Below are positions 12,850 through 40,560 of a stretch of DNA of 64,000 nucleotides, piece by piece (position 1 is the first letter of the stretch; the number at the start of each line of letters is the position of its first letter). The notes under the pieces were generated by a model that saw only the letters and a list, made by a program, of their open reading frames with translations, had not been told where the DNA came from and made no database searches. This DNA comes from Dehalococcoidia bacterium. Lineage in GTDB: Bacteria; Chloroflexota; Dehalococcoidia; Lucifugimonadales; UBA1127. A program made the position numbers and the translations under genes. The DNA is taken from contig CBDHDD010000002.1 of assembly GCA_965261405.1 (NCBI GenBank), positions 499,395 to 563,394 of the forward strand, written 5' to 3'.

Positions 12850-12854
12850 TCTGT

Positions 12855-13376
12855 CTACCTTTCCCCCCACCGCTCCTCTAGCACCAATCGGCGTTGAAAC
12901 ACCAATTCTGGGTCGCACCGGTAACCGAGGTATTCTTGGTTTATGTGGATACCACGAAAGGTGAAGTTCATGCTGCCGTCAATTGTGAAGTGATCGCTCA
13001 CGATTCCCTTCTCGTGAACGTCCTGCGTGCGGATAATGCGCAAGTCATCGGTTAGCAGTTCATCCTTCATGCGCTGAAGTCGATCCACGAATTCATTATT
13101 CTGCACATCATAGTTGACGATAGCTGTAATCTTCACTCCGCGCTCGACGAGAGCCCGGAGAACCGAAGATAGGCGAATCATGGTTGCGGGCCACGCAGGT
13201 ACTAGGCTCCCGAACTGGCGGGCGGTATTGTCGATTAGGTTGACATCATTGACCCAGGGTGATGAGAGCCACATCTGGGAACTCGGGCAAATCATCTCTG
13301 CGACGAAAAGCGACTGGAGAAACTCCATCGGCACCAGGTGCGATTTCTCCGCATAAATGTCCCTCGAAAGTGCCAT
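12855..13376 (-). CDS. dpdK: Single-HKD phospholipase-D-family nuclease (DpdK-like)
   Basis: HKD motif 'HEKGIVSD' followed by 'IDGSMNFT'. About 173 aa. The start is 1 nt after the dpdJ stop. Confidence 0.75.
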   Translation of the reverse strand: MALSRDIYAEKSHLVPMEFLQSLFVAEMICPSSQMWLSSPWVNDVNLIDNTARQFGSLVPAWPATMIRLSSVLRALVERGVKITAIVNYDVQNNEFVDRLQRMKDELLTDDLRIIRTQDVHEKGIVSDHFTIDGSMNFTFRGIHINQEYLGYRCDPELVFQRRLVLEERWGER

Positions 13377-13377
13377 C

Positions 13378-18608: not shown

Positions 18609-18620
18609 TCTAACCTCCCA

Positions 18621-27269: not shown

Positions 27270-28353
27270 TTCTGATTTTCGCCAAAGTGTTTAGCAAGAA
27301 TGGTGCCGGTAAGCTGGGACTCAGAGCCAAGAGAAGGCGACCGTATTCTTGCCGCCTGCGAACACGATCAGCGAATTCGTCGCGCGCTTCGAAAGGATAT
27401 CCCGTTGGATCCAACAAGTGTAAGAGTGCCAAAAGAAGGTCTTCGTCGCCAAGCGTTGGAGTAGCTGATATCAGAAGCACTCGTGAGGCCAATCGTGTTA
27501 GTTCTTCAAGATGACGATATTCTTCATTTGCCCAGGCATTCTCAGGGATGAGATGATGAGCTTCATCGATAACCAAAGAGTCGACTTCTCCCGGCACGAG
27601 TTGCTTCAACTCCTCATGGGTCAGAATCGTTACGTTAGAACTCGTGAGAAAGAACCGGTCTCTCAGTTCTCTTACCCACTGCCCAAGGAGGGTGGCCGGA
27701 ACTAGGATTCCGACCCTCTCTGTCGGATTGTCGATGACTGCCTGGCGTACAATCGCACCGGCTTCAATCGTCTTGCCGAGGCCCACCTCGTCCGCTAATA
27801 AATAACGTTGGATAGGATCCTGCAAGATGCGCCGAACTACCTGAATCTGATGGGGGAGTAGTTCAACGGACGCCGACAGGAGTCCGGTCAACCCATGCCC
27901 AGCAGCCCTACTATTGGTGATGCATTCAAGCGCGCCCTGGCGGGCGTCGAAGAAATATTGAGTCTCCATGCCACCGTTAGCGAGAATAGCGGCGGGGTCG
28001 TCAACAGGCAATAGGCAACGCACGTGTAAGTGCCGTTCAGGTATCCTATGACTCAACCGATTTGGGAACTGGATATCATATGCTATCTGCCCCCCACCAT
28101 CGAGAGTCGAACCCACGAAATAATCAACGACACGTCCCACCATCCAGTGCCCCGCACCACTCTCGACATATACCCGAGTCTGCGGACTAAGATATGCTCG
28201 CCTAATCTGCTGTGCCGGGTACACTAGATCGAATGTCCGGGAAGGAGACCTGAAAAACCGGACCGTGGCCTGTTCCTCATCTGAATCTACTAACCGCCCA
28301 ATACCATTCTGATCAAGTGTCCAAACGAACTCACCATTCCTAAGCCGAACCAT
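27250..28353 (-). CDS. dpdE: SNF2-family helicase, N-terminal domain plus RecA1 lobe (DpdE-like, first polypeptide)
   Basis: 'LLPHQIQVV', 'LLADEVGLGKTIEAG', 'LVIDEAHHL', 'LLISATP'. It ends at the TAA at 27250-27252. Confidence 0.65.
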   Translation of the reverse strand: MVRLRNGEFVWTLDQNGIGRLVDSDEEQATVRFFRSPSRTFDLVYPAQQIRRAYLSPQTRVYVESGAGHWMVGRVVDYFVGSTLDGGGQIAYDIQFPNRLSHRIPERHLHVRCLLPVDDPAAILANGGMETQYFFDARQGALECITNSRAAGHGLTGLLSASVELLPHQIQVVRRILQDPIQRYLLADEVGLGKTIEAGAIVRQAVIDNPTERVGILVPATLLGQWVRELRDRFFLTSSNVTILTHEELKQLVPGEVDSLVIDEAHHLIPENAWANEEYRHLEELTRLASRVLLISATPTLGDEDLLLALLHLLDPTGYPFEARDEFADRVRRRQEYGRLLLALSPSLPAPFLLNTLAKIRSAFPDD

Positions 28354-28590
28354 CTGCTCTCGATTCCCTATCCCCGCCGCTGCCAGTAACAGAGTTTGCT
28401 GGCGCGAAAAAATCTGACCAGGGATTTTTCCCTATGGTAAGACATGGTTCAAGCGGTGACCACCCTAAGAATCGACGCTCAGTGGCATAACACTCCTTAG
28501 GGGTGTAGAGACAGCAGGCCTAGCAAAGACGAAGGGCACCGCTCCACCCTGAATTCACAAACGAAGTGGAACACCAGATCAGGGTGTTGC

Positions 28591-29060
28591 CATGGGATAC
28601 CGACAACTCTCCATTGAGGATCGGTGTGAGCTTGCCCAATTGTCCTGCGGGCGCGGGGAGGCAGACACGATGCTCTTCGGGAGGTCAGGGTAGGTGGTGC
28701 CGGCCCTGCACGAGCGCCACTCGCGCCTGCTGATCGCAGCGCGGGCGCTGCCGCCGGCGTTTCGACAGTCGGTGACCTTCGACAACGGGACGGAGTTCGC
28801 CCGTCATCACGAGTGTGCATCGAGACCTTCTTCTGCGACACCGACTTGCCGTGGCAGAAGGGCGGGGTGGAGAAAGCGATCGGGCAGCTGCGCCGTTTCC
28901 TGTCCGGTAGGACGGTCCTGGCGGATGTGTCGGAGGAGCGGTTCTCGCTGATAATGCAGACGCACAACAACACGCCGCGCAAGTGCCTCGGCTACCGGAC
29001 ACTGACCGAGGTTTTCATGGCCCAGGTGTTGCACTTCAAATTTGAATCCACCGCGCAGCC
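28591..29060 (+). mobile_element. IS30-family transposase pseudogene (internally deleted and frameshifted)
   Basis: N-terminal 'MGYRQLSIEDRCELAQL', then a stop. 'VTFDNGTEFARHHE' is in a second frame. 'FFCDTDLPWQKGGVEKAIGQLRRF...HNNTPRKCLGYRTLTEVF' is in a third. Confidence 0.7.
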
Positions 29061-29748
29061 GGGAACAGTTGAGATCGGAATGGGCATCGCAATGATCAGG
29101 GAACGGCGGATAGGCCACTATCGATTCTGCGAATCTTCAAGGTGCGGGGTAGGGAGCCACTTCCCTTCGCCCTTGGAACGACAACGGCGCAGCGAAAAGG
29201 GACTTGCCGGTTGTCCGGCCACAGCAAAACGTCAAGAAAGACATCCCCGCCCGCCGCATTGTGGATGGCGCAGGCTCTCGCCGGAGCATATCCACGCGCA
29301 ACACCGCCGCACCATGTGATGCTCCACGAACGCCTTCCCCACGCCGCGGCGTCGCTACAGGAGACGCAAGCAGAGGTCCCGCCTTTGCCACACCCGCGTT
29401 AAGATGCTATCGAACACCCCGGGAGCGCCCTGACAACAAGACATGGCGACGAACGGAGAACAAGTTGCCCCCGCGGTTGCCTCGCCGTGCCCACTACCGA
29501 CGAACCGGTCCGATACACCATGGGAAGCCCATACCGCCGTTCAAACAGCGAGAGTAACGAGACCTACCTCAACCATGGCGCCTTGTAGTAAAACGCCGTA
29601 TCATACATCGTGCATAGCAACAAGGCTATATCATCTCCCCGTTCCGTGCCTAGGAACGCGGCATCCCCTACCTCTTGGGAACAATCCATCTATGGTTCCC
29701 TACACAACCACATAAGCCTTGCCCACAAGAACACACCGAGTTACTCAA

Positions 29749-30111
29749 ATGATATTGTTTAAGGAACCTGCTGCATCCATGATCCTTCGCGGAGAGAAGA
29801 CTCAGGCACGCAAAATGTGGTCGCGACCACGGGCGAAATTAGGATCTGAGCATCTAGCATGCCGAAGGCTTCCTATGCGCGGCGAAAAACCATTTGCCAA
29901 GATCAAGATAGACCGCATTTGGCGCCAGCGGCTCGGGGATATATCGGAAGCTGATATTAAAGCTGAAGGATACACTGGACGGGAAGAATATATAAGACAG
30001 TATATATTGGGTCGAACCGTTCCCGAGCCGGTGGAAGACGTTGAAGTGTACGTGTTGGAGTTCCATATCGTGGAGCGATATGAGCCTGTGCCGCCTATTC
30101 AACCCCAATGA
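29749..30111 (+). CDS. ASCH-domain protein
   Basis: 'MILFKEPAASMILRGEKTQARK...FAKIKIDRIW...DISEADIKAEGY...VLEFHIV' fits the ASCH pattern. The ATG at 29749 is preferred over the upstream alternative start. Confidence 0.65.
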   Translation: MILFKEPAASMILRGEKTQARKMWSRPRAKLGSEHLACRRLPMRGEKPFAKIKIDRIWRQRLGDISEADIKAEGYTGREEYIRQYILGRTVPEPVEDVEVYVLEFHIVERYEPVPPIQPQ

Positions 30112-30751
30112 TCTTGTGCAGTTGAACGCCCAACCTCCATCCAGGCAAATGGTTCAGCAACTCAATCGCTGACCTTAGATTCGTGGTGGTTTGGTCTAGG
30201 TCAGCATCCCAAACAATGGGCTGCAGGTATCGAACCTGGGCTTCGATTGCATCGTAGCCCTCCGGCCGTATCTCAGGGTTTGGATGGGGCCACAACAATT
30301 TCAACGTATCAGCCCTCCCAATCACCGTCATTGCCGGAGGCAGTTTTGGCGAAAGAGTCAAGTGGTCGAGCCGCTCCAAAACCCCGTCGCGAAACGCCTT
30401 CGTTCCGTTGGTTTCGATGGCGACGCGATAATTCTCAGAGTGAAGAGCGTCTAGCAAAGGTGCGTCAATTTGAAGCGCAGGTTCGCCGCCACTCACCCAA
30501 ACCCATTCAGCACCTGGCGTTCGGAGTGTTGAAAGCCTGGCCAGAATCGAGTCGCTAGTTTCCATTGTGTGGGAGAAAAACTCTGTATCACAATAGGGGC
30601 ACTTCGAATCGGCCTTCGTTTGCGGGCGCCCGTCCCACATGTTGCAACCGGAAAAGCGCAGGAAAAGGCAAACAACACCCGCTAAGGCTCCCTCGCCCTG
30701 GATGGTGGGTCCAAAGATGCTATTCACGCCGTATCGATGCACTACAACCAT
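30095..30751 (-). CDS. queE: 7-carboxy-7-deazaguanine synthase QueE (radical SAM)
   Basis: 'IFGPTIQGEG'. Cluster motif 'C-x14-C-x2-C' (CNMWDGRPQTKADSKCPYC). 'VSGGEPAL'. Starts at 'MVVHRYG'. Confidence 0.85.
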   Translation of the reverse strand: MVVVHRYGVNSIFGPTIQGEGALAGVVCLFLRFSGCNMWDGRPQTKADSKCPYCDTEFFSHTMETSDSILARLSTLRTPGAEWVWVSGGEPALQIDAPLLDALHSENYRVAIETNGTKAFRDGVLERLDHLTLSPKLPPAMTVIGRADTLKLLWPHPNPEIRPEGYDAIEAQVRYLQPIVWDADLDQTTTNLRSAIELLNHLPGWRLGVQLHKIIGVE

Positions 30752-31127
30752 TAGACTCCCACAAAGTAATCGCTTCGACATTAAACGGAGTGTGATCCTC
30801 CAGGCTGCGCAGCAGAAACGAAGCAATGTTCTCAGCCTGTGGGCGCCAGTTAAGAGTAACCACACTCGGGGCCAGTTACACCAACGACGCCGAACATGGT
30901 TAATCACGGTGTACGACGAAGCGGTGGTCAAGGTTAGCGTCAATGAAACCGCCGGCCACCGCCTTCAGGGCGGCAAAACCACCAACCATCCCCTTGTCGT
31001 CCAACGAAGGCGCACAGACAGTTACGGGAGCAACGCAACCATAGCCGTGAAGATTGGAACACGAAGCAGGATGGTTGTATAGAGTATAACCCCTAGTAAA
31101 TTCGAATCTTCGCGTAATGCTGGTCAT
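30720..31127 (-). pseudogene. queD: QueD-like 6-carboxytetrahydropterin synthase interrupted by two in-frame TAA codons
   Basis: A single frame reads '[10 protein letters not shown]...LHGYG...LDHRFVVHRD*PCSASLV*LAPSVVTLNWRPQAENIASFLLRSLEDH...ITLWESNGCSASIRRE'. Stops are at 30900-30902 and 30876-30878. The start overlaps the upstream stop (ATGA). The 3' end overlaps the queE start. Confidence 0.65.
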
Positions 31128-31461
31128 TGCATGTACTCCGTTGGATCCATCACCCCAGCTTCCTGAAAGGCCTCCCGGCGCTCGCAGCAGATGCCACATT
31201 CCCCACATTGCGGCTCGAGTCCCTTATAGCAAAACCAAGTTGCAGCCCAGTCTTATACCAACTCTTCGCCGCTTCTGACAATGTCGCTGAAGCCAAGGAG
31301 TGTATAGGTGGAGCATAGCCCTCTGTTGCTATCGATTCCATCGCAGCAAATGACTCGATAGTCGCCGGACGACAATCAGGGTAGATGGGGTGATCACCAA
31401 GGTGCACGCCAGCAGTTACAATAGGCATTCCCGAACCGGGGGGCGTTGAGAATGCTCGCAC
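31124..31461 (-). pseudogene. QueC-like 3' fragment (N-terminal half missing, -1 frameshift near 31229)
   Basis: 'PIVTAGVHLGDHPIYPDCRP...' resembles QueC 'DYSGYPDCRPEF'. After a frame change it reads '[34 protein letters not shown]', which is the QueC Zn/C-terminal motif. No PP-loop region is present. Confidence 0.6.
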
Positions 31462-31816
31462 CCCCGTGTTCCTCGAGAGGCAGGAGATGCCGTCGGTCGT
31501 CGGTCACCAGGAAGTCGGCGGTGGCGGTCGCCACGCACTCCAGGATGCGGTTGTCGGCGTGGCCGCCGTCGATCATCTCCGGAAGCCGCGGGGGCTCGAT
31601 GACGCTGCCGGCATGCCCGATCGCCCAGAGAGCCTGTGACGAGCGTTCGTCGGTCCATCCGAACTTTCGCGCAAGCACCCCGGCAACCTCCTCCAGGATG
31701 AAGGGGGAAAGATACATCTCGAACCGTCCCCTTAGCGCCAAATCGAGAACGCGGCGCTCGTTGCCGTGACGGTTCAGACCGGAGACGATGACGTTGGAAT
31801 CGAGGACAACGCGCAT
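31394..31816 (-). CDS. PIN-domain toxin (VapC-like)
   Basis: 'MRVVLDSNVIVSG...' is the N-terminal acidic PIN motif. 'FLVTDDRRHLL'. About 140 aa. Its 3' end runs into the queC-like fragment. Confidence 0.75.
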   Translation of the reverse strand: MRVVLDSNVIVSGLNRHGNERRVLDLALRGRFEMYLSPFILEEVAGVLARKFGWTDERSSQALWAIGHAGSVIEPPRLPEMIDGGHADNRILECVATATADFLVTDDRRHLLPLEEHGGASILNAPRFGNAYCNCWRAPW

Positions 31817-32070
31817 GGACGGGAGGCGTTGACTTCGGCCCGGTACTCGTCCATCAGAGCGGCTGCGTCTTCAGGTCCGATGCCCCTCTCCCTGGCCCTC
31901 TCCTCTCCGTACTGGGGCAACTGCCGCCACTCGCACTCGTCAATTTTACGGAGCAACTCCTCCCGCAGGAACTCGCTCCTTGACCCTCCCTGTTGCTTCA
32001 TCGCCTCGTCCACCCGGTCCGCCATCTTCGGCGGCAAGGAGAAGGTGATGGTCCTGGTCGTTCGCGGCAT
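31774..32070 (-). CDS. Ribbon-helix-helix (CopG-type) antitoxin
   Basis: Starts at 'MPRTTRTITFSLPPKMADRVDEAMKQQGGSRSEFLREEL' (RHH beta-strand plus helices). It overlaps the PIN start. Confidence 0.65.
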   Translation of the reverse strand: MPRTTRTITFSLPPKMADRVDEAMKQQGGSRSEFLREELLRKIDECEWRQLPQYGEERARERGIGPEDAAALMDEYRAEVNASRPCALSSIPTSSSPV

Positions 32071-32401
32071 GCCCACCTCTTGTGACCGAGTTGTGCATGA
32101 CACTGCGCCATCGGCGTACTCTCTGTCAAAGGTCTCGAGCCCTCCACCGAAGGACTTTGAGCCGGGAGGACAGGCAGGGCCACGCTCCGCCGTCCACTTG
32201 ACGGGCGGAAGCGGGGAACGGCGGCGGGAGCCTATCAAATCGGACTATCTTCAAGAGAAGACGGGGGTGGGAAGTCACCTCTTCCCCTGGACCTTGCTCT
32301 TGAAAACCTCGTCGGCGGAAATGGAACAACTGCTCAGTGCCGATGCGTTGTTGTAGCATAGACACTGACCATCCCGGACCAATTGAACGCGGAGGTTTGC
32401 T

Positions 32402-32695
32402 TTGCCAACGTTCACCAAGATGTCCATAGCGCAAGCTCAAGCCAAGAGCGCGACCGGCAAACGGGCGGCGCTTCTCCAGGAATACATGGCGTTTGTCCAG
32501 GACGTGGCTTCCGGCGAAGCGGGTTCACTGGAGGCCACGGAGGGTGAGACCACCCAGGCGATTCGGCGCAGGCTCAATGCCGCTGCGGAAGCCCTCGGCA
32601 GGACGCTGGAGACGCGGCGGAACGGCAACACCGTCTACTTCTGGGTATCGGAGGGCCGACGCCGCGGCAGGCCCCGCAAGAACCCAGAGGGGTAG
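32402..32695 (+). CDS. Small hypothetical protein with a C-terminal AT-hook-like 'GRRRGRPRKNP'
   Basis: Third-position GC is consistent with coding. No family recognised. The start is either TTG at 32402 or ATG at 32420. Confidence 0.35.
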   Translation: MPTFTKMSIAQAQAKSATGKRAALLQEYMAFVQDVASGEAGSLEATEGETTQAIRRRLNAAAEALGRTLETRRNGNTVYFWVSEGRRRGRPRKNPEG

Positions 32696-32869
32696 TTGCC
32701 AACATCAGGCCCAGGGAGCGGGCGCGTCGGAAACCACGGGGGTCTCGCACCTCTCGGCCAAGGCCGGGACATCCTTCGTTTGCGTGACGGGCTGGGCAGA
32801 ATCAGGACGCTTGCAGAGGCGCCAGCGGCTGCGCGGAGTGATGCGGCTCGCGCCTGGATTCTGAGCCCA

Positions 32870-35434
32870 CTAGCCCAGGGTTTCATCAAAGCCCAGATCT
32901 CGGACCCGCTGGTAATCGCTCTCCGCCCCTGCCGTGTCCCCCAGGGTTTCGCGCGCCACTCCCCTGCCGTAGTAGGCGGAAGCGCTCGCAGGGTCGCAGG
33001 CGATCGCCGCGTCGAAGTCCGCTATCGCCAGGTCCACGTTTCCGCTGAAGAGATGGGCGCTGCCCCTGCCGCGATGCGCAACCTCATTGTTGGGATCCAG
33101 GTGTAGGCTGACGTCAAAGTCGGCCAGTGCTCGATCATAGTCTCCACTGGCGAGATGGGCGTCTCCGCGGAACCTGTACGCATATGGGTCTTCGGGGTCA
33201 CGGTGCAGCGCCCTATCGAAGTCGGCAATCGCCCGGTCGAATGCACCCTGCCTACGAAGGACTGCTCCCCGCCCGCGATAGGAGCGGGCGCTCTCGGCGT
33301 CGAGTTCGATAGCGGTGTCGAAGTCGGCAATCGCCGAGTCGTATTCCCCTCGGTAGAGCCGGCACTCACCCCTTGCCTGGTAGGCTTGGACAAAGCCAGG
33401 GTCCAGGCGAATGGCCTCGTCAAAGTCGGCGATGGCTAGCTCAAGGGCGTTGAGTTCTCCGTACGACAGTCCGCGGTAATGGTGGGCCATCGCTGCTCCC
33501 GGGCTGAGGCTGATGGCCTGGGACATATCGGCAATCACCTGCTCATGACTCCCCATGTACCCGTGGACGATGCCGCGCAGTACGAGGGCTCCAACGTTTC
33601 TGGCATCGAGCCGTAGGGCAGCGTCAAGGTCTGAGACTGCCTGGCTATCCTCTCCCTTGAGGAAGTGTGACCTTGCCCTGGCAACGTATGCGGCCGCGTC
33701 TTGGGGGTCGCCCTTTATGGCGACGTCCTGAGATGCGAACGCACGATCATCGCTGCCACCACCAGCGCCCGCCGTCATTACTGCCCGTATGGCTTTGGCT
33801 ATGTCCAAAGTACGGTCCAACACCGTTCCCGCGCCCAAGAAACGGGCGGCCTTGCCGTAGCGGTTGGATGTGATCTTGTCGCCGGCCATCAACGCGGCTA
33901 CTGCGGCGGCCACCGCGAAGGATGGATCGTCGGGATTCAATTGCAGGGACGACTCGAAGGCCGCCAGCGCTGCGGCATGCTCTCCGACCTGCGCTTGCGC
34001 CGACCCCAAGGCAAAATAGTACCGGGCATCCAGGGGTCCGCAGGTGGGCGCGACGCCCACTAAGTGGGCAACCGCCTCCTCCGCCCTACCCAGTTGCAGA
34101 AGCAACCACCCGATTTCAGCCCAGGGAAGAATCCAGTCGGGGTCCAAGGCATGAGCGAGCCAGCAGGATTGCATTCCCCGGGAGATAAGACCTGCGTCCC
34201 CGGTCATGCCGCCAATGCCGCCCAGGGCGGAACCCAAGGTAAAGTGGTTCACAGGGTCGAGCGGGTCCAGGTCAACCGCCTTGGCTACCTCGGCGATAGC
34301 TTCGGGGATCCTCCCCTGCACCTGCAGTTCCTCGGAACGCTGGTAGTGCTCGTAGGCTTTGGGGTTACGAACCTCCCAGCGTTCAAGGATACGACCATCC
34401 GTCCGCTCTATGAGCTCATTCACCTCCGCCCGGTGTACCTGCAAGTTGACCTCCAGTACGCGGCCGACCCAATCGAAGTTCGCAGCCAGGAGGTCAGCTT
34501 TCCACTCCTCGTCGCTCTCCAGGATGGCCAGTGCGGCGAGCAGGGGCTCCGCGCGCGGAGCGTGCACCCCCAGCATAACGAGCTCGAGGTGGTCGACGGG
34601 TCCGCCTGCGGCCACCTCCTCACCGTGGATGATGCGAAATGCCTGTAACGCATAGCGGTGGAGGTGGCCCACGATTTCGTTCACGGCATCGACGCCAAGG
34701 TGCTTCCCCAGGACCGCGGCAACATCGCTGGTCCAGTAGAGCAGCCGTAGGTCACGGACTATCCGGGCACGTTCCTGGGGGTCACCGCGGGGCGCCAGCG
34801 CCTCACCGATCTTCAGCAGGTTTTCGTCTGTAGGCCGCGCCCTGCGGTAAAGCCACGCCTCCGCCGTGTTCTTGAAGACTCCCGCAGCGGCTGGGAAGTC
34901 AATCACGGGGATTCCCGCCTTCTTACGCTGCTGGTTCAGGTACCTTCCCCGCCGGGTGACATCCGCCCACGCGAGGAAGTCCAGCGCTGTCTCCGACGCG
35001 CCGGTATAGTGGAGGAGTGCAGCTAGCCTCAGGGCCAAATCGATACTCGCCAGCCTGAGGTACGCTTTCCAAAGAGTGGCGAGACTGCTGGGATACACGC
35101 GCATCATCCTGGGGAGGAGAAACGCCCTCAACCGGTCCCAGTTGACGGTATGTTCGTTAAGTATGGACGAGAGCACGGAGTGGAACGGCATCTCGTCATT
35201 AGGCTGAGGCGTCGCCTCAAAGCCCAAAACGGCCAAAGTCTCCACGATAGCCGCAAGCGTCTCCTCGCGGCTGAGCTCCTTCACTTGCTCGTCGCGCCGT
35301 CCGCTGAAGAACCGCTTGGCAGTCCTGTCACGGAGCATCGCGTCCTGGAAGCCCATAGTATCTACCAGGACACCCAAGATCTGTCCGCTGGTCGGCAACT
35401 GTTGCGAAACTTCAAACTCCACGGCGCCATGCAC
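32870..35434 (-). CDS. 854-aa protein: unknown N-terminal region with a possible HTH segment, plus a long C-terminal TPR array
   Basis: The C-terminal ~500 aa hold many 34-aa repeats ('A..D..AI.LDP....AY..RG'). The N-terminal part contains 'GIPVIDFPAAAGVFKNTAEAWLYRRARPTDENLLKIGEAL'. Confidence 0.75.
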   Translation of the reverse strand: MHGAVEFEVSQQLPTSGQILGVLVDTMGFQDAMLRDRTAKRFFSGRRDEQVKELSREETLAAIVETLAVLGFEATPQPNDEMPFHSVLSSILNEHTVNWDRLRAFLLPRMMRVYPSSLATLWKAYLRLASIDLALRLAALLHYTGASETALDFLAWADVTRRGRYLNQQRKKAGIPVIDFPAAAGVFKNTAEAWLYRRARPTDENLLKIGEALAPRGDPQERARIVRDLRLLYWTSDVAAVLGKHLGVDAVNEIVGHLHRYALQAFRIIHGEEVAAGGPVDHLELVMLGVHAPRAEPLLAALAILESDEEWKADLLAANFDWVGRVLEVNLQVHRAEVNELIERTDGRILERWEVRNPKAYEHYQRSEELQVQGRIPEAIAEVAKAVDLDPLDPVNHFTLGSALGGIGGMTGDAGLISRGMQSCWLAHALDPDWILPWAEIGWLLLQLGRAEEAVAHLVGVAPTCGPLDARYYFALGSAQAQVGEHAAALAAFESSLQLNPDDPSFAVAAAVAALMAGDKITSNRYGKAARFLGAGTVLDRTLDIAKAIRAVMTAGAGGGSDDRAFASQDVAIKGDPQDAAAYVARARSHFLKGEDSQAVSDLDAALRLDARNVGALVLRGIVHGYMGSHEQVIADMSQAISLSPGAAMAHHYRGLSYGELNALELAIADFDEAIRLDPGFVQAYQARGECRLYRGEYDSAIADFDTAIELDAESARSYRGRGAVLRRQGAFDRAIADFDRALHRDPEDPYAYRFRGDAHLASGDYDRALADFDVSLHLDPNNEVAHRGRGSAHLFSGNVDLAIADFDAAIACDPASASAYYGRGVARETLGDTAGAESDYQRVRDLGFDETLG

Positions 35435-35481
35435 CTCCAGTTGTGGTCTCTCGGTGGGTCACGGGTTCTGCCCGATTCGGG

Positions 35482-36351
35482 CTACCAGCCGTACAGTCCA
35501 CCCCTCTCGAGGAATCGCTGAGTATCCACAGCAATGTCCTTGATTGCCTCTTCGACTCCCACCTCGATTATAGGTCGGCTGTAGGTGTGTGCCCCCGATG
35601 TATTGTCGAAGAACCGCCCGGCCGGATCCACCATGACGTAGCTCCCGGTCATCAGGTCGTTCGACTCCGGCACGACACGAACGCCGTAGTCCTCGACGCG
35701 CCGGCTCGATTGAACGTAGCGCTCAAACTCATCCGGTGCGACCACATACTGGTCCACTTCAGCGTCGTTCTGGCCTTTGACGGGGAGCACCTGCAGGAGC
35801 TTCCATCGCTCTGGCCGAGCCGCAATGATGAAGTCCGTGAGGTCCTCCTCCAGATTGCTGCGGGTCACGACGGTGTTCACCTTTATGCGGGCGCCGTACC
35901 CTCTGAGGAGGTCAATCGCTCGCGCGTAGTCATTGGCCGTCAGCGGGCCCGCCCGCAGGGTCCGCCCGATGCCACTGAGGGTCTCTGGATTCACCGAGTC
36001 GATGCTCAGTGCCGCCCAATCGAGACTCCCGTTTACCCTCTCCAGCCATGCCCGCGTGATCCGGCTGCCGTTGGTGACCACCGAAGTGGTGAGCCCCAGT
36101 TTCTTGGCATGGGTGATGAGGTCGGGCAACCAGGGGCAGAGGGTTGGCTCTCCGCCCGCGAAGTTTATCTTCTGGATGCGGGCCCCGGCGAGCGCATCCA
36201 CCAGCTTGAGGCAGTCCTCGCGATCTAGATGACCCTTGGGCAGTGTGTCGCGTCCGACATCTTGAAAGGTTGCGAAACAAAACCCGCATCGCATGTTGCA
36301 GGGTTTCCAGAGGTGGTAGTTCACCGTAGGTATGCCGATTGTGCTCTTCAT
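35482..36351 (-). CDS. Prokaryotic viperin (pVip), radical-SAM ddhNTP synthase family
   Basis: Collinear with animal viperin as I recall it: 'VNYHLWKPCNMRCGFCF' (CxxxCxxC), 'KINFAGGEPTL', 'VVTNGS', 'KVNTVV', 'RWKLLQVLPVKGQN', 'VPESNDLMTGSYVMVD', 'IEVGVEEAI', and C-terminal 'FLERGGLYGW'. AAGGAGG lies upstream of the ATG. Confidence 0.85.
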   Translation of the reverse strand: MKSTIGIPTVNYHLWKPCNMRCGFCFATFQDVGRDTLPKGHLDREDCLKLVDALAGARIQKINFAGGEPTLCPWLPDLITHAKKLGLTTSVVTNGSRITRAWLERVNGSLDWAALSIDSVNPETLSGIGRTLRAGPLTANDYARAIDLLRGYGARIKVNTVVTRSNLEEDLTDFIIAARPERWKLLQVLPVKGQNDAEVDQYVVAPDEFERYVQSSRRVEDYGVRVVPESNDLMTGSYVMVDPAGRFFDNTSGAHTYSRPIIEVGVEEAIKDIAVDTQRFLERGGLYGW

Positions 36352-37130
36352 GATCCTCCTTCTGTCCGGTGTGCTTAAACTTTGGGCACTTCAATTGTTT
36401 GGGTCAGATGCCACAGAGCGAAACCCCAGTTGCACGGACAGAATCCTTTTCGCTGGCTGAAGAAGGGTGAAACTACGGTCGGTGTGTGAGGTGTTTTGTC
36501 AGTCACACGTCGTCATCGAGTCGAGCAGGGGGCAGGGGGCAGGGGAAGAGGCTTCCGCCGTACTGTTGGGGCCGCGACAAGACCCGCACGACCGAAATCA
36601 ATCCTTCTGAGTAGCGACAAAGAACGGATTGTCACGGTGCTGGCCCGCCTATGGATGGATGGCGCACATGACAAAGTGCCGTCCATTAGTTAGTGGGACG
36701 ACCCCAATGCGGGTGACTATTCGTGGCGTTCGCTGTCCAGTCCGGCGGGCCTGAGTGAATGAAGGCAGTACCGTCTTTGAGATGTGACAGCGTCTGAGAG
36801 GTTCACCGAGGCGCGCTACTCCACAAGTATGACGACGCGTGCGAGGCAATTGGAACTACTTCCTTAGGTACTCTTGGGCAGTGGCTCTCCAAATGGTGAG
36901 GCAATCAGCTGCCTCGCATTTCGTCCTTAAGTGGCCTTCTAGGTTCAAGTCCTGAACAGCCCACCCTTCTCGCAGCATCAGTCCCTGAGAATGCTTACTT
37001 CGGGTTGCTTGACCTCGCCCTGGACAGCTTGCTACTTTGCGAAATCGCCGCACGCGTCCGGTCGTGGGGATGTCTGGCAGTGGAGGTCCCTGCCTTCCAC
37101 TACCCCAATGACAGCGCAAAGGAGGCCACT

Positions 37131-37184
37131 GAAAACAGTGCCTGACAGGTGTATCACTGTTGATGCACCTGTCAGGCAGTTTTC
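37131..37184. repeat. 54-bp near-perfect palindrome/hairpin in non-coding DNA
   Basis: gaaaacAGtgcctgacaggtg-[tatcactgttgatg]-cacctgtcaggcagttttc. The arms are 19 bp with a 2-nt bulge. The loop holds the inner repeat atca/tgat. Confidence 0.8.
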
Positions 37185-38129
37185 TTACCGCACCCCGGCC
37201 GTTCACACTTGAACCGTGGCGCCCAGCACCAAGTAGGCGACCTCGACGCAATGTACAAACCCCCGCAGCCCCATATTGACGTTCAAACGAGGGCCCAACG
37301 GTGAACGCACAAAAGCGCCTCCCTCCAGGAGGTCTAGGAGGAACCCTTAGTCGTTCACACCGTCAGGCGGGCACCGCGGTCCAGCTAACTGACAGCTACC
37401 TAGGGCCGCGCCGTCGAACGCCTGGTCCGAAGTGCAGACATAGACACCACCGGACACTCCGGGTGAGGCAGATGCAACGAGACGATATGGGAGATACGAG
37501 CACACGGGACAGGCGGAAGAGGCCCCACGGGGGCGCCTCTGAGCTCCGGGTGGTCAGGGTCTTCGACAATCCCGGCCCCGACGCCGAGGACCGGCTGCGC
37601 CGCCTCGTCTCCCTCCTGCTTAAGTACGCCACCAGAGACGGGCAGTCTGCGTCCGAGAAGGACTCGCCTCCAGACGCCAGGCACATCGGCGACTGTCCCG
37701 AGGCCGAAGGCTGATGCGGTCCGAGTCGTGTCCAATGGTCATCAGCGTTGGGTCCCTGGCCATGCCGCTCTTGGTGAGCGAAGGTCCGTGCTCCGTCGAG
37801 TGAACGTGGCGGAGTAGTCCGTGAACAAGATGGCCGCATTCGGCGAGCAGGAGGCGCCGTACGCGGCCGTCCTCGGGGGCGTGTCGAAGAGCATCGACGC
37901 GGCCAAGGCGTCGGCTGCCCGTCCGGTGACCGCCGCCATGGCCGCCGCGTACTTGCTGACCGGGGATCGCGTCGTCGAGTTCGAGCAGTCGGGAGAACCG
38001 CGGACCAAGCACGGGGCTGCGCGCATCGAGCGGCTGGCGGCTGACCCAAAGCGACGGTTCGAACGCGGCTTCCCGTGACAGGACGTACAGCACCTGCGCC
38101 TGTTCTACCCCTCCTGCCCACCCGATCTG

Positions 38130-38154
38130 ATCTGCCAGACGCTGTCTGGCAGAT
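38130..38154. repeat. Perfect 11-bp inverted repeat with a 3-nt spacer
   Basis: atctgccagac-gct-gtctggcagat. Confidence 0.8.
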
Positions 38155-38301
38155 TCGACGCCGATCTCGCCGACCTGCGAATGGCGGGCCTTCCACTGCC
38201 CTCGTCCGCCTGCGTGGAGCTGCTGTCGGTCAGGGACGACAGCGCCCGAGAGTTCTGTGAGACCGAGGCGCTGCGAAGGGTAAGCAGCCCGGGTCTGCGC
38301 T

Positions 38302-38330
38302 TTGACGCCCCCTGTCCAGCGGGGTACAAT
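38302..38330 (+). promoter_or_regulatory. Sigma-70-like promoter (TTGACG-17 nt-TACAAT)
   Basis: ttgacg at 38302-38307, a 17-nt spacer, and tacaat at 38325-38330. It points toward the recombinase gene. Confidence 0.45.
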
Positions 38331-38425
38331 GGAGGGCAGAAAGTTGACCCGGCGATGCGACAAACATCCCGGGCCGTGGCGCCACCCGCGGGTAGCAGGT
38401 GATGCAAAGGCATTGTACCACCCGC

Positions 38426-38458
38426 AGACCCGCTCCCAACAGGAGGCGGGTCTTTTTG
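38426..38458 (+). terminator. Intrinsic-terminator-like hairpin plus T-tract, 28 nt upstream of the recombinase start
   Basis: agacccgc-[tcccaacaggag]-gcgggtct followed by tttttg. Confidence 0.55.
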
Positions 38459-38485
38459 ATTGCAGAGGATGTGAAGGGGGCAGCA

Positions 38486-40084
38486 ATGGCGAGAACCATC
38501 AATAGGAAGACCGAAATGAATCGGGCGGCCATCTACGCCCGCGTCTCGGACAAGAGCCAGGACGGAGAGGACAAGACCTCCCTCTCCGAGCAGACCGCCG
38601 ACATGGAGGCCTACTGCGCCCGCAAGGGCTTGCGCATCGTTGCCCGCTACCAGGAGGTGGGCCGGGGCTGGTCCAAGAAGCGCCCGGAGTTCCAGCGCAT
38701 GCTGGACGAGGCCCGCGAGGGCCGCTTCGACACCGTCGTCTGCTGGAAGTCCGACCGCCTGAGCCGGGGCATGTACCCTGCCGCCGCCCTCATGGAGGTG
38801 GTGGAGGCCTACCAGATCGGCCTGGAGGCGGTCATGGACGCCATCGACATGAAGACCTTCGGCCTCATGGCGGCCATCGGCAAGATCGAGTTGGACAACT
38901 TCCGCGAGCGGGCAACCATGGGCAAACGGGGGACGGCCAAGCAGGGGCGCATACCCTCAGGCGGAGTCCCCTACGGCTACCGCATCGGCGCGGACGGCAA
39001 GCCTGCAGTGGTGGAGGCTGAGGCTGAGATTGTGCAGCGCATCTTCCGCCAGTACGTTCACGAGGGGCTAGGGATACCGACGATTACCCGCCAGATCGAG
39101 GACGAAGGAGTCCCTACGGGAAAGCCAAGCGGCAAGCGTTGGTACGGTTCGCACCTCAATCGCATCCTGAGGAATGAGGCCTACAGGGGCACGTGGACCT
39201 ATGGCCGAAGCAGGCACGTTTCGACTGAGGACGGGAGAGTGACCTACCAGCAGCCAGAGGAGAACTGGATAGAGATACCATTCCCCCCGCTGGTGGACGA
39301 AAGAACCTGGGATATGGCCCAGAAGCTCAGGAAGCAGCGGCTGATCCGGTCCAAGAGGAACACCAAGGTGTTCTATCTGTTGCAGCACCTCGTCAGGTGC
39401 GCGGAGTGCGGGATGCTCTTTGGAGGGCGAGCAACGAATCAGAATACCGTGAGACGCCGCGGTAAGCTCTATCAGTACCACTTTGACACCCCCCGTCGGT
39501 ATTACCAGTGCTACGGGATGCAGAAGCACCAGTCTCGCTGCCGGCAGCATCCGTTCATCCGGGCGGAACGGTTGGAGGACCTGGTCTGGGGCGAGGTCAC
39601 GAGGGTGCTGCAGAATCCCGAGGTCATCGTGACTGGCATCGATGCTCTCAATGTACGGGAAGACCGCGGGGCGGCAGAGGAGCTCGCCAAAGCGGAGCGG
39701 GATCTGCGCGAGGTGCAGATGGAAGAAGAACGGTGCATCAGACTGTATGTGTCGGGGAAGATCACCGAGGACCAGCTCGACCATCAACGTAAGTTCGTTA
39801 CCGAACGCCTGGAGAGTCTCCGAGCAAGGGTGGAAGACTACCGCGCACAAAGAGCTACGGACACCGAGAGACGAGCACTTGCAGGGAGGCTGATCGAGTG
39901 GGCCCGGAAGTTTGGGGAGGGGACAGATGGGTTGAACGCTGAGCAGCGCCGAGAGATTCTGCTGCTTCTCGTTGACAGCGTCGCAATCGACCGTGACGAC
40001 AGCGTCAGCATCTCCCTGGCCATCCCTACTGGGGAGTTTTGTGCAAATGCAACCCCGAATAGTTCATGCTCGTCGGCGCGATGA
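38486..40084 (+). CDS. Large serine recombinase (island integrase)
   Basis: 'AAIYARVSDKSQ' (catalytic Ser region) and 'WKSDRLSRG'. Recombinase domain 'PYGYR...'. Zn-ribbon 'CAECG...YYQCYG...C'. C-terminal coiled coil. The ATG at 38486 follows gaaggggg. Confidence 0.9.
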   Translation: MARTINRKTEMNRAAIYARVSDKSQDGEDKTSLSEQTADMEAYCARKGLRIVARYQEVGRGWSKKRPEFQRMLDEAREGRFDTVVCWKSDRLSRGMYPAAALMEVVEAYQIGLEAVMDAIDMKTFGLMAAIGKIELDNFRERATMGKRGTAKQGRIPSGGVPYGYRIGADGKPAVVEAEAEIVQRIFRQYVHEGLGIPTITRQIEDEGVPTGKPSGKRWYGSHLNRILRNEAYRGTWTYGRSRHVSTEDGRVTYQQPEENWIEIPFPPLVDERTWDMAQKLRKQRLIRSKRNTKVFYLLQHLVRCAECGMLFGGRATNQNTVRRRGKLYQYHFDTPRRYYQCYGMQKHQSRCRQHPFIRAERLEDLVWGEVTRVLQNPEVIVTGIDALNVREDRGAAEELAKAERDLREVQMEEERCIRLYVSGKITEDQLDHQRKFVTERLESLRARVEDYRAQRATDTERRALAGRLIEWARKFGEGTDGLNAEQRREILLLLVDSVAIDRDDSVSISLAIPTGEFCANATPNSSCSSAR

Positions 40085-40560
40085 ACCCGTGCCCCTGCGG
40101 CTATTTCGGCGATCCGTTCCGGGCGTGTACCTGCGCTCGCAGCGCTGTTGTACGGTATCGAAACCGCATCTCCGGGCCGCTCCTCGACCGCATCGACATC
40201 ATCTTGCCCGTGCCCAGGGTGGACTATGACAAGTTGACGACGGACAGCGTCTCCGAGGCCTCAACGCAGGTGCGCCGCCGCGTCGAGACTGCCCGCGATC
40301 TCCAGCGCCGCCGCTTCGGCGAGTCCGCCATCCAATGCAACGCCGACATGGGTCCCTCTGAAGTGTGGACCCACTGCCAACTTGACGACGCCACGCAGGC
40401 GATGGCCAAGGCGGCCATGGACACGTTGCACCTCTCCGCGAGGGCCTACCACCGCACCCTCAAGCTCGCTCGCACCATCGCCGACCTGAGCGGCGCCGAG
40501 GCCGTTGGCGGCGACCATTTCCTGCAGGCCATGAACTACCGCCAGCGCGCCGAAGAGTAG
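40063..40560 (+). pseudogene. comM: 3' remnant of comM/yifB (Mg-chelatase-like ATPase) truncated by the island insertion
   Basis: 'FMLVGAMNPCPCGYFGD...CTC', 'ISGPLLDRIDI', 'LSARAYHRTLKLARTIADL'. A stop codon lies immediately upstream (40060-40062). No N-terminal ATPase part is in the window. Confidence 0.85.

What the first reader, a model, noticed from the sequence alone, without database searches (positions are those of the whole stretch)
38486..40560. Island right end: large serine recombinase inserted in comM, with the recombinase ORF terminating inside comM-derived sequence
Seen:
- The comM-like reading frame starts abruptly at 40063 ('FMLVGAMNPCPCGY...') right after a stop codon. Only the C-terminal ~165 aa are present.
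- The recombinase stop (40082-40084) lies about 20 nt inside that sequence. So the crossover/attR core must lie around 40050-40070.
- No N-terminal comM part occurs anywhere in 1-40,000.

Established: comM/yifB is a recurrent integration hotspot for genomic islands. Large serine recombinases act at short, specific att sites.

Inference: everything left of about 40,060 in this window belongs to one integrated element of at least 40 kb. Excision would restore comM.
Basis: partly seen in the sequence, partly recalled or inferred. Interest (0 to 1): 0.65.

Follow-up and report, generated by a model that had tools for sequence, protein, structure and literature searches.

The report
Serine-recombinase defence island inserted in comM
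This is the right-hand junction of a mobile island of at least 40 kb, loaded with anti-phage genes, that a large serine recombinase has inserted into the middle of the bacterial comM gene; this kind of event is known, but here it can be mapped to within 3-5 bases.

Summary
A 532-aa large serine recombinase (LSR, 38486-40084) ends 22 nt inside the 3' third of comM/yifB (40063-40560).

A close relative with an uninterrupted comM (L088) matches the window from exactly 40063 rightwards. It matches nothing at 1-40062, so all of that DNA is inserted.

A 349-aa comM 5' fragment sits on a contig of the same length (1,862,106 bp) as the one carrying this exact LSR. Joined to the window fragment, it rebuilds a 508-aa ComM that is 501/508 identical to the intact gene.

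The crossover lies in TTC(AT), 40063-40067.

The event recurs. The closest LSR relatives in Chloroflexota/Dehalococcoidia sit at the same comM codon, and their stop codon is always the TGA hidden in comM's ATG-AAC.

The cargo is a defence island: Dpd, viperin and a CBASS-like pair.

All main features have precedents: Dehalococcoides DsiB islands, phage WO in Mg-chelatase, and yifB as a "regulated gene integrity" target. This is therefore a new member of a known kind.

Two things remain open. The island may be a single element or an accreted one. The family's left ends may encode a conserved LSR C-terminal peptide that is rejoined to the gene only after excision.

The parts
1..40062 (.). DNA that is absent from the uninterrupted comM locus of a close relative, i.e. 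the in-window part of the inserted island. Its left end lies beyond the window.
   Evidence: blastn of the empty-site locus L088 against the window aligns only 40063-40561 (97.6%) and 40642-50607 (94.3%). Nothing else aligns apart from short REP-like repeats. There is no comM 5' part in the window.
38486..40084 (+). Large serine recombinase gene (532 aa). Its last 7 codons, including the stop (40064-40084), are encoded by comM-derived DNA.
   Evidence: Pfam Resolvase + Recombinase + Zn_ribbon_recom. PHROG 95 integrase, E = 1.9e-104. The nearest solved structure is the SPbeta-type YokA integrase. R19, S21, Q25, the DRLSR motif and four Cys are invariant in a 25-sequence alignment. 532/532 identical to P0244.
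40063..40067 (+). Crossover core (attR). TTC is shared by attB, attR and every attL. TTCAT is shared with the attL form implied by three of the four full-length 5' fragments in the P0249 cluster. The exact dinucleotide is not resolved.
   Evidence: attB (L088) is ...CCGCCAAC-TTCATGCTCG. attR (window) is ...CCGAATAG-TTCATGCTCG. attL (L087) is ...CCGCCAAC-TTC-GTCCCAG. P0370, P0249 and P0367 end FPANF-I..., so their attL reads TTC-AT.
40063..40560 (+). comM/yifB 3' fragment (residues 344-508 of a 508-aa protein). It is still an open frame.
   Evidence: TIGR00368 positions 339-499. 161/164 aa identical to intact P0251. There are 12 codon differences from L088, 9 of them synonymous. The downstream gene order is the same as in L001 and L088.
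38302..38485 (+). LSR 5' region: a promoter-like site (38302-38330), a leader conserved across the family, a terminator-like hairpin (38426-38453) followed by a U run, and a ribosome-binding site.
   Evidence: Promoter scan gives 10/12 matches. A 12-locus alignment shows a conserved leader and hairpin. No Rfam match.
37487..37714 (+). Conserved 75-aa ORF that accompanies the LSR across the family. It is a candidate accessory or directionality factor; its function is unknown.
   Evidence: tblastn finds homologues upstream of the LSR, on the same strand, in 62 of 80 loci. No Pfam or PHROG match.
36830..36963 (+). Non-coding block containing a copy (36846-36890) of the motif that marks left ends (P' arms) in this LSR family. 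Read in the LSR phase it gives ...FLRYSWAVAL....
   Evidence: nhmmer matches L087 9679-9803 (E = 6e-5). A DNA profile of the motif hits here with E = 9.6e-8. In L087 and L014 the motif lies 28-29 nt beyond the crossover.
37139..37178 (.). Strong hairpin with 18 base pairs, flanked by T runs on both strands. It looks like a bidirectional terminator and separates the block above from the LSR module.
3257..30943 (.). Cargo: a Dpd 7-deazaguanine DNA-modification/restriction cluster. It comprises a YhhQ-type transporter, DpdA, QueC, DpdD, K, J, I, H, G, F, E, and QueE. This region has low GC (52-57%).
   Evidence: NCBIfam equivalog matches. PADLOC DpdA. GC profile.
35482..36351 (-). Cargo: prokaryotic viperin (pVip).
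   Evidence: NF038283, E = 3.1e-90, above the curated cut-off. PADLOC pVip.
659..2649 (+). Cargo: a CBASS-like nucleotidyltransferase (659-1474) whose end overlaps the start of an HNH/GmrSD_C-Excalibur protein (1474-2649).
   Evidence: PADLOC cyclase, E = 1.7e-64. Pfam GmrSD_C and Excalibur.

Best explanation
Window 38486-40560 is the attR junction of an integrative island that a site-specific large serine recombinase inserted into the chromosomal comM (yifB) gene of a Chloroflexota (probably Dehalococcoidia) bacterium.

Shown:
- The LSR gene lies at the extreme right end of the island and reads outward.
- Its recognition half-site (P arm) is the 3' end of its own coding sequence.
- Strand exchange took place within TTC(AT) at the Phe344-Met345 codons of comM.
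- As a result the LSR ORF now runs 22 nt into comM DNA and stops at a TGA supplied by the host.
- comM is cut inside its AAA+ module into a 344-residue 5' part and a 164-residue 3' part.

Inferred:
- Recombination between attL and attR by the same enzyme, probably with a directionality factor, would excise a circle and rebuild an intact comM.
- The conserved 75-aa ORF upstream is a candidate for that factor.

The island carries anti-phage systems (Dpd, viperin, a CBASS-like pair), so it acts as a mobile defence island. Whether its 40+ kb arrived in one event or by accretion is open.
For: - Domain architecture and conserved catalytic residues of the LSR.
- Empty site in a close relative, with the homology break exactly at 40063 and conserved gene order on both sides.
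- attL in a near relative (L087; its LSR gene is 95% nt-identical to the window's), where comM ends at the same TTC.
- A comM 5' fragment (P0370) recorded on a contig of the same length and sources as the window's own LSR (P0244). The rebuilt ComM is 508 aa and 501/508 identical to the intact gene; the TIGR00368 matches are 1-339 and 339-499.
- Recurrence. 6 of 80 GTDB loci carry the identical junction, and these include the closest relatives. 34 of the 120 nearest LSR clusters end in the +1-frame reading of FMLxxAM|N, including 19 of the top 20.
- Intact and interrupted comM alleles coexist among relatives whose ComM 5' part is 95-98% identical in protein to L087's fragment.
- Both comM halves are still open frames, with 9 synonymous against 3 non-synonymous differences in the 3' part.
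- Published precedents: PMC3146451, PMC9203015, PMC7192596.
Against: - The left junction of this very island was not seen. The link rests on matching contig length and sources, not on coordinates.
- GC content is mosaic: 62% at 1-3 kb, 52-57% at 3-31 kb, and 60-65% at 31-40 kb.
- A left-end-type motif lies inside the island at 36846-36890, and the relative L087 shows a tandem arrangement. A single 40-kb unit is therefore not established.
- No excised circle or restored site was found for this element. An exact search for its P arm in JGI metagenomes returned nothing.
- No recognised directionality factor is present.
- In this copy a DUF1016 fragment occupies the position where many relatives carry a PAPS-reductase-like gene.
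Confidence: 0.85

Rival explanations
1. The island is an accreted array, not one element. On this view a small LSR module (about 36.83-40.065 kb: P'-like block, terminator, 75-aa ORF, LSR) sits next to comM 3'. The 36.8+ kb to its left (viperin, Dpd, CBASS-like genes) would be one or more separately acquired islands. These could move only together with the LSR module, or not at all.
For: - A P'-type motif lies at 36846-36890 and is homologous to one inside L087.
- L087 has comM 5' - P' - P' - LSR - P', which is a tandem or composite arrangement with an attP-like junction.
- GC content is mosaic.
- Tandem accretion is documented for Dehalococcoides ssrA islands (PMC3146451).
- Several loci carry two or three motif copies near their left end.
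Against: - No second LSR or LSR remnant lies left of 36830.
- The sequence at the expected crossover position is ACG, not TTC. Its left flank (TGACGAC) is shared with L087, so it does not look like an independent junction.
- The other five comM-clade loci have no motif within 10 kb upstream, so large elements are normal in this clade.
- Even a composite could still excise as one unit through the outer attL and attR.
Confidence: 0.35
2. The island is a fixed, no longer mobile remnant. The recombinase is retained, but excision no longer happens and comM is permanently inactivated.
For: - No excised form was detected.
- The module next to the LSR is eroded: there is a DUF1016_N fragment and no PAPS-reductase-like gene.
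- DpdE is split into two ORFs.
- A relative (L082) keeps a truncated comM with no LSR beside it.
Against: - The LSR ORF is intact, with all invariant catalytic and zinc-binding residues.
- Its promoter and leader are conserved.
- Both comM halves are undamaged, with mostly synonymous differences.
- Presence and absence of the insertion are polymorphic among very close relatives.
Confidence: 0.15
3. The 165-aa frame is an independent short Mg-chelatase-like gene or paralogue, and its position beside the recombinase is a coincidence or an assembly chimera.
For: Many database entries are short 'Mg chelatase' proteins of 164-172 aa that begin MLVGAMNPC.
Against: - Those short proteins are themselves products of the same interruption.
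- The fragment is 97.6% nt-identical to the 3' end of an intact syntenic gene, starting at exactly one base.
- It matches only positions 339-499 of the family model.
- The same junction occurs in independent assemblies.
Confidence: 0.01

Closest known systems
Dehalococcoides ssrA-specific genomic islands with the DsiB serine integrase (McMurdie et al. 2011, PMC3146451)
   Same: - Same phylum.
- A recombinase of about 540 aa sits at the very edge of the island.
- Its 3' end always overlaps the att site, so the stop codon lies outside the island.
- The islands carry accessory cargo and form tandem arrays.
- The authors already suggested that the gene might be fully functional only on the circle.
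   Different: - The target here is comM, a protein gene that is inactivated. DsiB islands target the 3' end of the tmRNA gene.
- No second small serine recombinase (DsiA) and no ParB or RecF-like genes are seen next to the window's LSR.
- Sequence orthology to DsiB could not be tested, because no DsiB sequence is available in the tools.
Phage WO sr1WO prophages of Wolbachia (Bordenstein & Bordenstein 2022, PMC9203015)
   Same: A large serine recombinase integrates into the host magnesium-chelatase-family gene, and pieces of that gene flank the element.
   Different: Those elements are tailed prophages in an alphaproteobacterial endosymbiont. Here no phage structural genes are seen in 40 kb, and the family has no close relative in IMG/VR.
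Regulated-gene-integrity elements: SPbeta in spsM, skin in sigK, A118-like prophage in comK, and yifB as a TIGER candidate (Mageeney et al. 2020, PMC7192596)
   Same: - The insertion disrupts a conserved domain.
- A tight integrase clade uses the same position repeatedly.
- Excision would restore the gene.
- yifB is explicitly listed as such a target.
   Different: No evidence here for conditional or developmental excision. The host group and the integrase clade are different.
AbaR/Tn6022-type resistance islands in comM of Acinetobacter (from my own knowledge, not checked here)
   Same: comM is the recurrent landing site of a large cargo island, and interruption is expected to lower natural transformation.
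   Different: Those islands move by Tn7-like transposition with a 5-bp target duplication, not by a serine recombinase.
Archaeal SSV-type 'suicidal' tyrosine integrases (review PMC8371274)
   Same: attP lies inside the integrase's own ORF, so integration partitions the gene. This is the analogy for the novel reading of this family.
   Different: Those are tyrosine recombinases split near the N-terminus, and they are said to occur only in archaea. Here a bacterial serine recombinase would lose only its last 20-40 codons.

Membership tests
Large serine recombinase (serine integrase) | N-terminal resolvase catalytic domain with a serine nucleophile | tested here: met
   PF00239, E = 3.8e-25. R19, S21, Q25 and D90-R94 (DRLSR) are invariant in 25 homologues.
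Large serine recombinase (serine integrase) | Recombinase domain plus a zinc-ribbon domain with four Cys | tested here: met
   PF07508 and PF13408. C305, C308, C342 and C352 are invariant.
Large serine recombinase (serine integrase) | Short att sites with a very short shared core and no long direct repeats | tested here: met
   attB, attL and attR share only TTC(AT). There is no second copy of the comM core in the window. The attP rebuilt for L014 is an imperfect palindrome, ATTGGAAACCCCGAACCAG|CTTCCGCGGTTTCTAAT, read by eye from the sequences.
Large serine recombinase (serine integrase) | Catalysis of attP x attB recombination, with excision dependent on a directionality factor | not testable with these tools
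   Needs biochemistry. The only candidate partner seen is the conserved 75-aa ORF.
ComM / YifB family Mg-chelatase-like AAA+ ATPase | Match to the family model over its full length | tested here: met
   The window fragment matches TIGR00368 positions 339-499 and P0370 matches 1-339. Intact P0251 scores 584 bits against a cut-off of 362.
ComM / YifB family Mg-chelatase-like AAA+ ATPase | Orthology, shown by the same genomic neighbourhood as an intact gene | tested here: met
   L088 and L001 share the downstream genes (hypothetical, cyclophilin, lactamase_B, aldo-keto reductase, rib operon).
ComM / YifB family Mg-chelatase-like AAA+ ATPase | A role in natural transformation in this host | not testable with these tools
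   No data are available for this lineage.
Dehalococcoides DsiB-type integration module | The LSR 3' end overlaps the att site and the stop codon lies outside the element | tested here: met
   the paper's statement is quoted
Dehalococcoides DsiB-type integration module | Integration at the 3' end of ssrA (tmRNA gene) | tested here: not met
   The target is comM. No tmRNA or tRNA gene is present in the window.
Dehalococcoides DsiB-type integration module | Companion genes: a small serine recombinase (DsiA), RecF-like, ParB, a 'Mom'-like protein and a primase-like protein | tested here: not met
   No second resolvase-type sequence in the window. A 278-aa PAPS-reductase-like gene, possibly the 'Mom homologue', occurs in many related loci but not in the window.
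Dehalococcoides DsiB-type integration module | Sequence orthology to DsiB | not testable with these tools
   No DsiB sequence could be retrieved.
Regulated-gene-integrity (RGI) element | A conserved domain is disrupted without being restored by the element | tested here: met
   The Mg_chelatase domain is cut at profile position about 150 of 207. The 5' fragment ends in 5 foreign residues and the 3' fragment is preceded by a stop.
Regulated-gene-integrity (RGI) element | Several independent insertions at the same position by one integrase clade | tested here: met
   6 loci and 34 protein clusters, concentrated among the closest relatives.
Regulated-gene-integrity (RGI) element | Conditional excision that reactivates the gene | not testable with these tools
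   No read data are available. Both halves remain intact ORFs, which is compatible with this but is not proof.
Integrase gene partitioned by its own att site (SSV-type logic) | attP lies inside the integrase ORF, so the integrated copy lacks part of the protein | tested here: inconclusive
   Rebuilt or observed attP junctions continue the LSR ORF in frame into a conserved peptide (NRHKKLRYSWAV...) for the comM target and for type-2 LSR sites 141, 246, 80 and about 500. No excised molecule and no protein evidence are available.
Dpd 7-deazaguanine defence system (cargo) | DpdA plus DpdD-K present | tested here: met
   NCBIfam equivalogs. DpdA, D, K, J, H, G and F score above their cut-offs. DpdI is weak. 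DpdE is split into two ORFs, each below the cut-off.
Dpd 7-deazaguanine defence system (cargo) | DpdB and DpdC present | tested here: not met
   The two genes after dpdA match UvrD/GajB-like helicases and Cas4-like nucleases instead.

The most novel reading that the evidence does not exclude
In this Dehalococcoidia LSR family the recombinase gene is itself split by integration.

The crossover lies 20-40 codons before the true stop. The missing C-terminal peptide, with the conserved core N-R-H-K-K-L-R-Y-S-W-A-V-x-L, is encoded at the opposite (left, P') end of the element.

A full-length LSR would therefore exist only on the excised circle, or at P|P' junctions inside tandem arrays. The integrated copy would make a tail-swapped enzyme (...SCSSAR* here). 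This would give a built-in, state-dependent switch of recombinase activity, stability or directionality.

That would be a bacterial, serine-recombinase counterpart of the archaeal 'suicidal' integrases. The same family also shows whole clades that specifically insert into the genes of a second LSR family.
Probability: 0.45. Interest if true: 0.7.

Novelty: new member of a known kind. Interest (0 to 1): 0.45.

Why it matters
For the window: 40 kb of anti-phage genes (Dpd, viperin, a CBASS-like pair) can now be assigned to a mobile island. Its insertion point is known to within 3-5 bases, a natural empty site is available for comparison, and comM can be called inactivated but restorable.

For the field: the analysis adds a well-resolved attB/attL/attR set for a large, highly conserved LSR family (64-97% identity over hundreds of clusters) with several copies per genome. 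The family has several discrete target specificities, which makes it useful raw material for integrase engineering.

It also sharpens a 2011 speculation about DsiB into a testable claim: the integrated and excised copies of the recombinase differ by a conserved C-terminal peptide.

comM interruption also fits the idea that mobile elements block transformation to avoid being cured. That idea comes from my own knowledge and was not tested here.

Tried and rejected
Searches that found nothing:
- Exact 50-mer of window 1-50 in GTDB genomes and in JGI metagenomes: no match.
- Look-ups of window proteins, or of their identical or near-identical database copies, to reach the source contig: 'not on record' every time. 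The left junction and the island length therefore could not be read.
- Exact P-arm search in metagenomes for an excised (attP) form: nothing.
- LSR relatives in IMG/VR, with a single sequence and with a 25-sequence alignment: only 22-27% identical hits, so a phage identity has no support.
- A second copy of the comM core or of LSR remnants in the window: none.

Ideas rejected or left unsupported:
- A tRNA/tmRNA-like reading of the 36.85-kb block, prompted by a GGTTCAAGTCC T-arm-like string. ARAGORN and Rfam find nothing and RNAalifold gives no consensus structure. The motif's variation is concentrated at every third base, which fits a coding reading better.
- P0067/L082, a truncated comM on a 3.9-Mb contig, has no adjacent LSR. 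It is a different or decayed event, not a second example.

A weakness I noted and partly corrected: the first codon-entropy test on the motif was biased, because the copies had been picked with a peptide pattern. I repeated the collection with a DNA profile, and relied on the unconstrained flanks and on stop-codon counts per frame.
Full report
**1. Checking the observation**

- The ORF at 38486-40084 (+) has the three-domain architecture of a large serine recombinase (LSR): Resolvase, Recombinase and Zn_ribbon_recom.
- It matches the PHROG integrase family 95 (E = 1.9e-104). Its nearest solved relative is the SPbeta-type YokA integrase.
- In an alignment with 24 homologues the catalytic R19, S21, Q25, the DRLSR motif and four zinc-ribbon cysteines are invariant.
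- Directly after a TAG at 40060-40062, the frame 40063-40560 encodes 165 residues. They match Mg_chelatase profile positions 150-206 of 207 plus Mg_chelatase_C, and positions 339-499 of the 499-position YifB/ComM model TIGR00368.
- The LSR stop, TGA at 40082-40084, lies 22 nt inside this sequence. It is the TGA contained in the comM codons ATG-AAC.
- tblastn with the 65-95 residues that precede the break in longer ComM proteins finds no 5' part anywhere in the window.

The description is correct in every point.

**2. Is it an insertion? The empty site**

- A search with a relative's ComM 5' fragment returned intact 508-aa ComM proteins. Their C-terminal 165 residues are 160-162/165 identical to the window fragment.
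- One of them was fetched as locus L088. It has comM between a Fe-dependent repressor and a 129-aa gene on the left, and a 122-aa gene, cyclophilin, lactamase_B, an aldo-keto reductase and the riboflavin operon on the right. The right side is the window's own gene order.
- blastn aligns L088 11030-11528 to window 40063-40561 at 97.6%, and L088 11560-21527 to window 40642-50607 at 94.3%. Nothing from L088 1-11029 is found in window 1-40062.
- The more distant relative L001 shows the same pattern.

Everything left of 40063 in the window is therefore inserted DNA relative to a natural empty site.

**3. The other half of comM**

- The source contig could not be reached by any look-up.
- Cluster listings, however, give contig lengths. 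P0244 is 532/532 identical to the window's LSR and lies on an NCBI+ENA contig of 1,862,106 bp.
- P0370 is a 349-aa ComM 5' fragment ending ...VTFPANF|IPVGQ*. It lies on an NCBI+ENA contig of the same length.
- P0370 matches TIGR00368 positions 1-339.
- Joining its residues 1-344 to the window fragment gives 508 residues, 501/508 identical to intact P0251.
- In the same way, the 97%-identical LSR P0121 and the 5' fragment P0249 share a contig length of 3,228,016 bp.

This is strong but indirect evidence that the 5' fragment is on the same replicon. Its distance and orientation remain unknown.

**4. Where the crossover is**

- L087 is a 103-kb contig whose LSR gene is 95% nt-identical to the window's. 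It carries a comM 5' fragment, and homology to L088 ends at ...CCGCCAAC-TTC.
- The three sites compare as follows:
  - attB: CCGCCAAC-TTCATGCTCG
  - attR (window): CCGAATAG-TTCATGCTCG
  - attL (L087): CCGCCAAC-TTC-GTCCCAG
- The overlap is TTC. Three of the four full-length 5' fragments in the P0249 cluster read F-I (TTC-AT.), which extends the overlap to TTCAT.
- The exchange therefore happened within window 40063-40067. The dinucleotide itself cannot be fixed.
- The bases just left of it (GAATAG) cannot encode the conserved Ala-Asn, so they belong to the element.

**5. Recurrence and specificity**

- The LSR belongs to a very large and very conserved family: 1,350 clusters with E <= 1e-20, and the top 120 are 62-97% identical.
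- In GTDB species representatives it was found only in Dehalococcoidia/Chloroflexota genomes, often in several copies per genome.
- Six of 80 loci (L002/L084, L003, L004, L005, L028, L035) have the comM 3' fragment overlapping the LSR end at the same codon. Four of these are the four closest relatives.
- Because the LSR reads comM in the +1 frame, its tail is predictable: S-C-[SWL]-[SWL]-x-[PLQR]-stop. 34 of the 120 nearest clusters end this way, including 19 of the top 20 and only 5 of the last 80.
- The tails differ as expected from synonymous differences in the host comM genes, so they represent different hosts rather than copies of one sequence.
- Intact and interrupted alleles coexist among close relatives: the intact P0251 cluster has 55 members and the interrupted P0249 cluster has 6.
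- Both halves are intact ORFs. The 3' part differs from L088 at 12 codons, 9 of them synonymous.

**6. What surrounds the recombinase**

- The LSR is preceded by a promoter-like site (38302-38330) and a leader of about 120 nt that is conserved across clades. The leader ends in a hairpin (38426-38453) followed by a U run, just before the ribosome-binding site. No Rfam family matches it.
- Further upstream lies a 75-aa ORF (37487-37714). Its homologues accompany the LSR in 62 of 80 loci. It has no family match. It is the only candidate partner or directionality factor I can point to.
- Many relatives have a 278-aa PAPS-reductase-like gene between the two. The window instead has a DUF1016_N fragment.
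- The remaining 36 kb is defence cargo:
  - a CBASS-like cyclase with an HNH/GmrSD_C-Excalibur partner;
  - a Dpd cluster with its own preQ0 supply genes;
  - a TPR protein;
  - a prokaryotic viperin.
- No phage structural or conjugation genes were seen, and the family has no close relatives in IMG/VR.

**7. One element or several?**

This is not settled.

- GC content is mosaic.
- At 36830-36963 there is a block homologous to one inside L087. It contains a ~48-nt motif that marks left ends in this family.
- In L087 the order is comM 5' - P' - P' - LSR - P'. The LSR is followed by another left-end arm, as expected for tandem elements.
- Against a separate 3.2-kb element in the window:
  - there is no LSR remnant to the left of the block;
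  - the expected core position reads ACG rather than TTC;
  - the flank is shared with L087.
- I rate a composite origin at about one in three. Even then, the outer attL and attR could excise the whole island as a unit.

**8. A family-level feature that bears on mechanism**

Target sites:
- In 32 of the 80 loci the LSR end abuts a fragment of a second LSR gene, about 25% identical ('type-2'). The junction falls at one of six fixed residues: 80, 106, 141, 246, about 350 and 497.
- In L014 both halves of the split type-2 gene flank a 10.6-kb element.

The motif at left ends:
- In L014 the element's left end starts with the motif, 29 nt after the core.
- Joining the right arm (P) to the left arm (P') continues the LSR ORF in frame...NPEP|ASAVSNRHKKLRYSWGVGLEAAEGDSAETSR*.
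- In L087 the same continuation is directly observed...PPTS|GVTGNNGESLRYSWAVALG* (P0242).

Tests of a coding reading:
- Using the target gene's codons as a ruler, the phase of the LSR frame at attR equals the phase of the motif frame at attL for every target where both are available: sites 141, 246, 80 and about 500, plus comM.
- Among 23 distinct motif copies collected with a DNA profile, the LRYSW frame has no stop in its first 22 codons in 19. The other two frames are open in 7 and 9.
- In the flanks that the selection pattern did not constrain, variation is concentrated at third codon positions. For example, the Leu two codons after the core LRYSWAV uses TTG, CTG, TTA, CTA and CTC.

Reading and caveats:
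- The simplest reading is that integration removes the last 20-40 codons of the LSR gene and excision restores them.
- The phases may be inherited rather than independently maintained.
- Part of the conservation could serve DNA binding.
- No excised molecule was seen.

McMurdie et al. noted the 3' overlap for DsiB and raised the same possibility. A review states that self-disrupting integrases are known only from archaea.

**9. Comparison with what is known**

Each element of the finding has a precedent:
- LSR islands in Dehalococcoides whose recombinase gene overlaps the att site (PMC3146451).
- LSR prophages in the Wolbachia Mg-chelatase gene (PMC9203015).
- yifB as a target of 'regulated gene integrity' (PMC7192596).
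- comM as a hotspot for AbaR islands (my own knowledge).

The membership table records which features are met and which are not. The main failures are the ssrA target and the DsiA/ParB module, so this should not be filed as a DsiB ssrA island. It is a related LSR island with a different target.

**10. Verdict**

The crossover is refined to 40063-40067, and the claim of a single element stays open. As it stands this is a new member of a known kind. The possible split-gene switch, the recombinase-in-recombinase targeting and the conserved leader are the parts worth a specialist's time.

Noticed in passing
window 36830-36963 (motif 36846-36890); also L087 9556, 9685 and 11593; L014 939, 1834 and 2142; and other loci: A ~48-nt motif (consensus CAATCGACACAAAAAACTGCGGTACTCGTGGGCGGTGGACTTGGATGC) marks the left ends of elements in this LSR family. 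In the LSR phase it reads NRHKKLRYSWAVxLxA. It may encode an LSR C-terminus that is joined to the gene only after excision.
   Followed up: partly
loci L007-L073 (32 of 80), e.g. L014 3-938 and 11556-12314: Many members of the LSR family are inserted inside the gene of a second LSR family that is about 25% identical. The insertions fall at six fixed residues (80, 106, 141, 246, about 350, 497), in either orientation. L017 has two elements in one target gene.
   Followed up: partly
window 38302-38485: A promoter-like site is followed by an LSR leader of about 120 nt that is strongly conserved across clades. The leader ends in a terminator-like hairpin (38426-38453) plus a U run, just before the ribosome-binding site. 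It may be an attenuator or riboswitch-like control of the recombinase. It has no Rfam match.
   Followed up: partly
window 37487-37714: A 75-aa ORF with no family match lies upstream of the LSR in 62 of 80 loci. It is a candidate accessory or directionality factor.
   Followed up: partly
window 25149-28353 (-): DpdE is split into two ORFs (model positions 1-365 and 370-1047) that overlap by 20 nt at 27250-27269. This is either a frameshift or an assembly error.
   Followed up: partly
window 4088-9338: The Dpd cluster lacks recognisable DpdB and DpdC. After a DpdA with a 160-aa N-terminal extension come a UvrD/GajB-like helicase (5803-8154) and a Cas4-like nuclease (8157-9338). QueC, QueE and a YhhQ-type transporter are included in the cluster.
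   Followed up: partly
window 659-2649: A CBASS-like nucleotidyltransferase overlaps by ATGA a 391-aa protein with GmrSD_C/HNH and Excalibur domains. A similar GmrSD_C-Excalibur gene lies about 9 kb upstream of the LSR in L084.
   Followed up: partly
window 32870-36351 (-): A prokaryotic viperin (35482-36351) lies directly upstream, in the direction of transcription, of an 854-aa TPR-repeat protein.
   Followed up: no
window 37139-37178: A hairpin of 18 base pairs has T runs on both sides. It looks like a bidirectional terminator between the P'-like block and the 75-aa ORF.
   Followed up: no
window 37821-38078: An 85-aa ORF matches only the first 64 positions of DUF1016_N. It is a gene remnant at the position where relatives carry a PAPS-reductase-like gene.
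   Followed up: partly
window 40557-40589, 44312-44352, 51356-51391: Short GC-rich hairpin repeats (REP-like) lie at gene ends. They also occur at several places in the relative L088.
   Followed up: no
L082 10001-10513: Another genome (a 3.9-Mb contig) has a comM truncated one codon further right (...MAMVRV|LLVGAMNPC) with no recombinase beside it. This is a decayed or different insertion.
   Followed up: partly
window 36-302: The C-terminal end of an AAA_12/UvrD_C_2 helicase runs off the left edge of the window. The island continues beyond the window.
   Followed up: no
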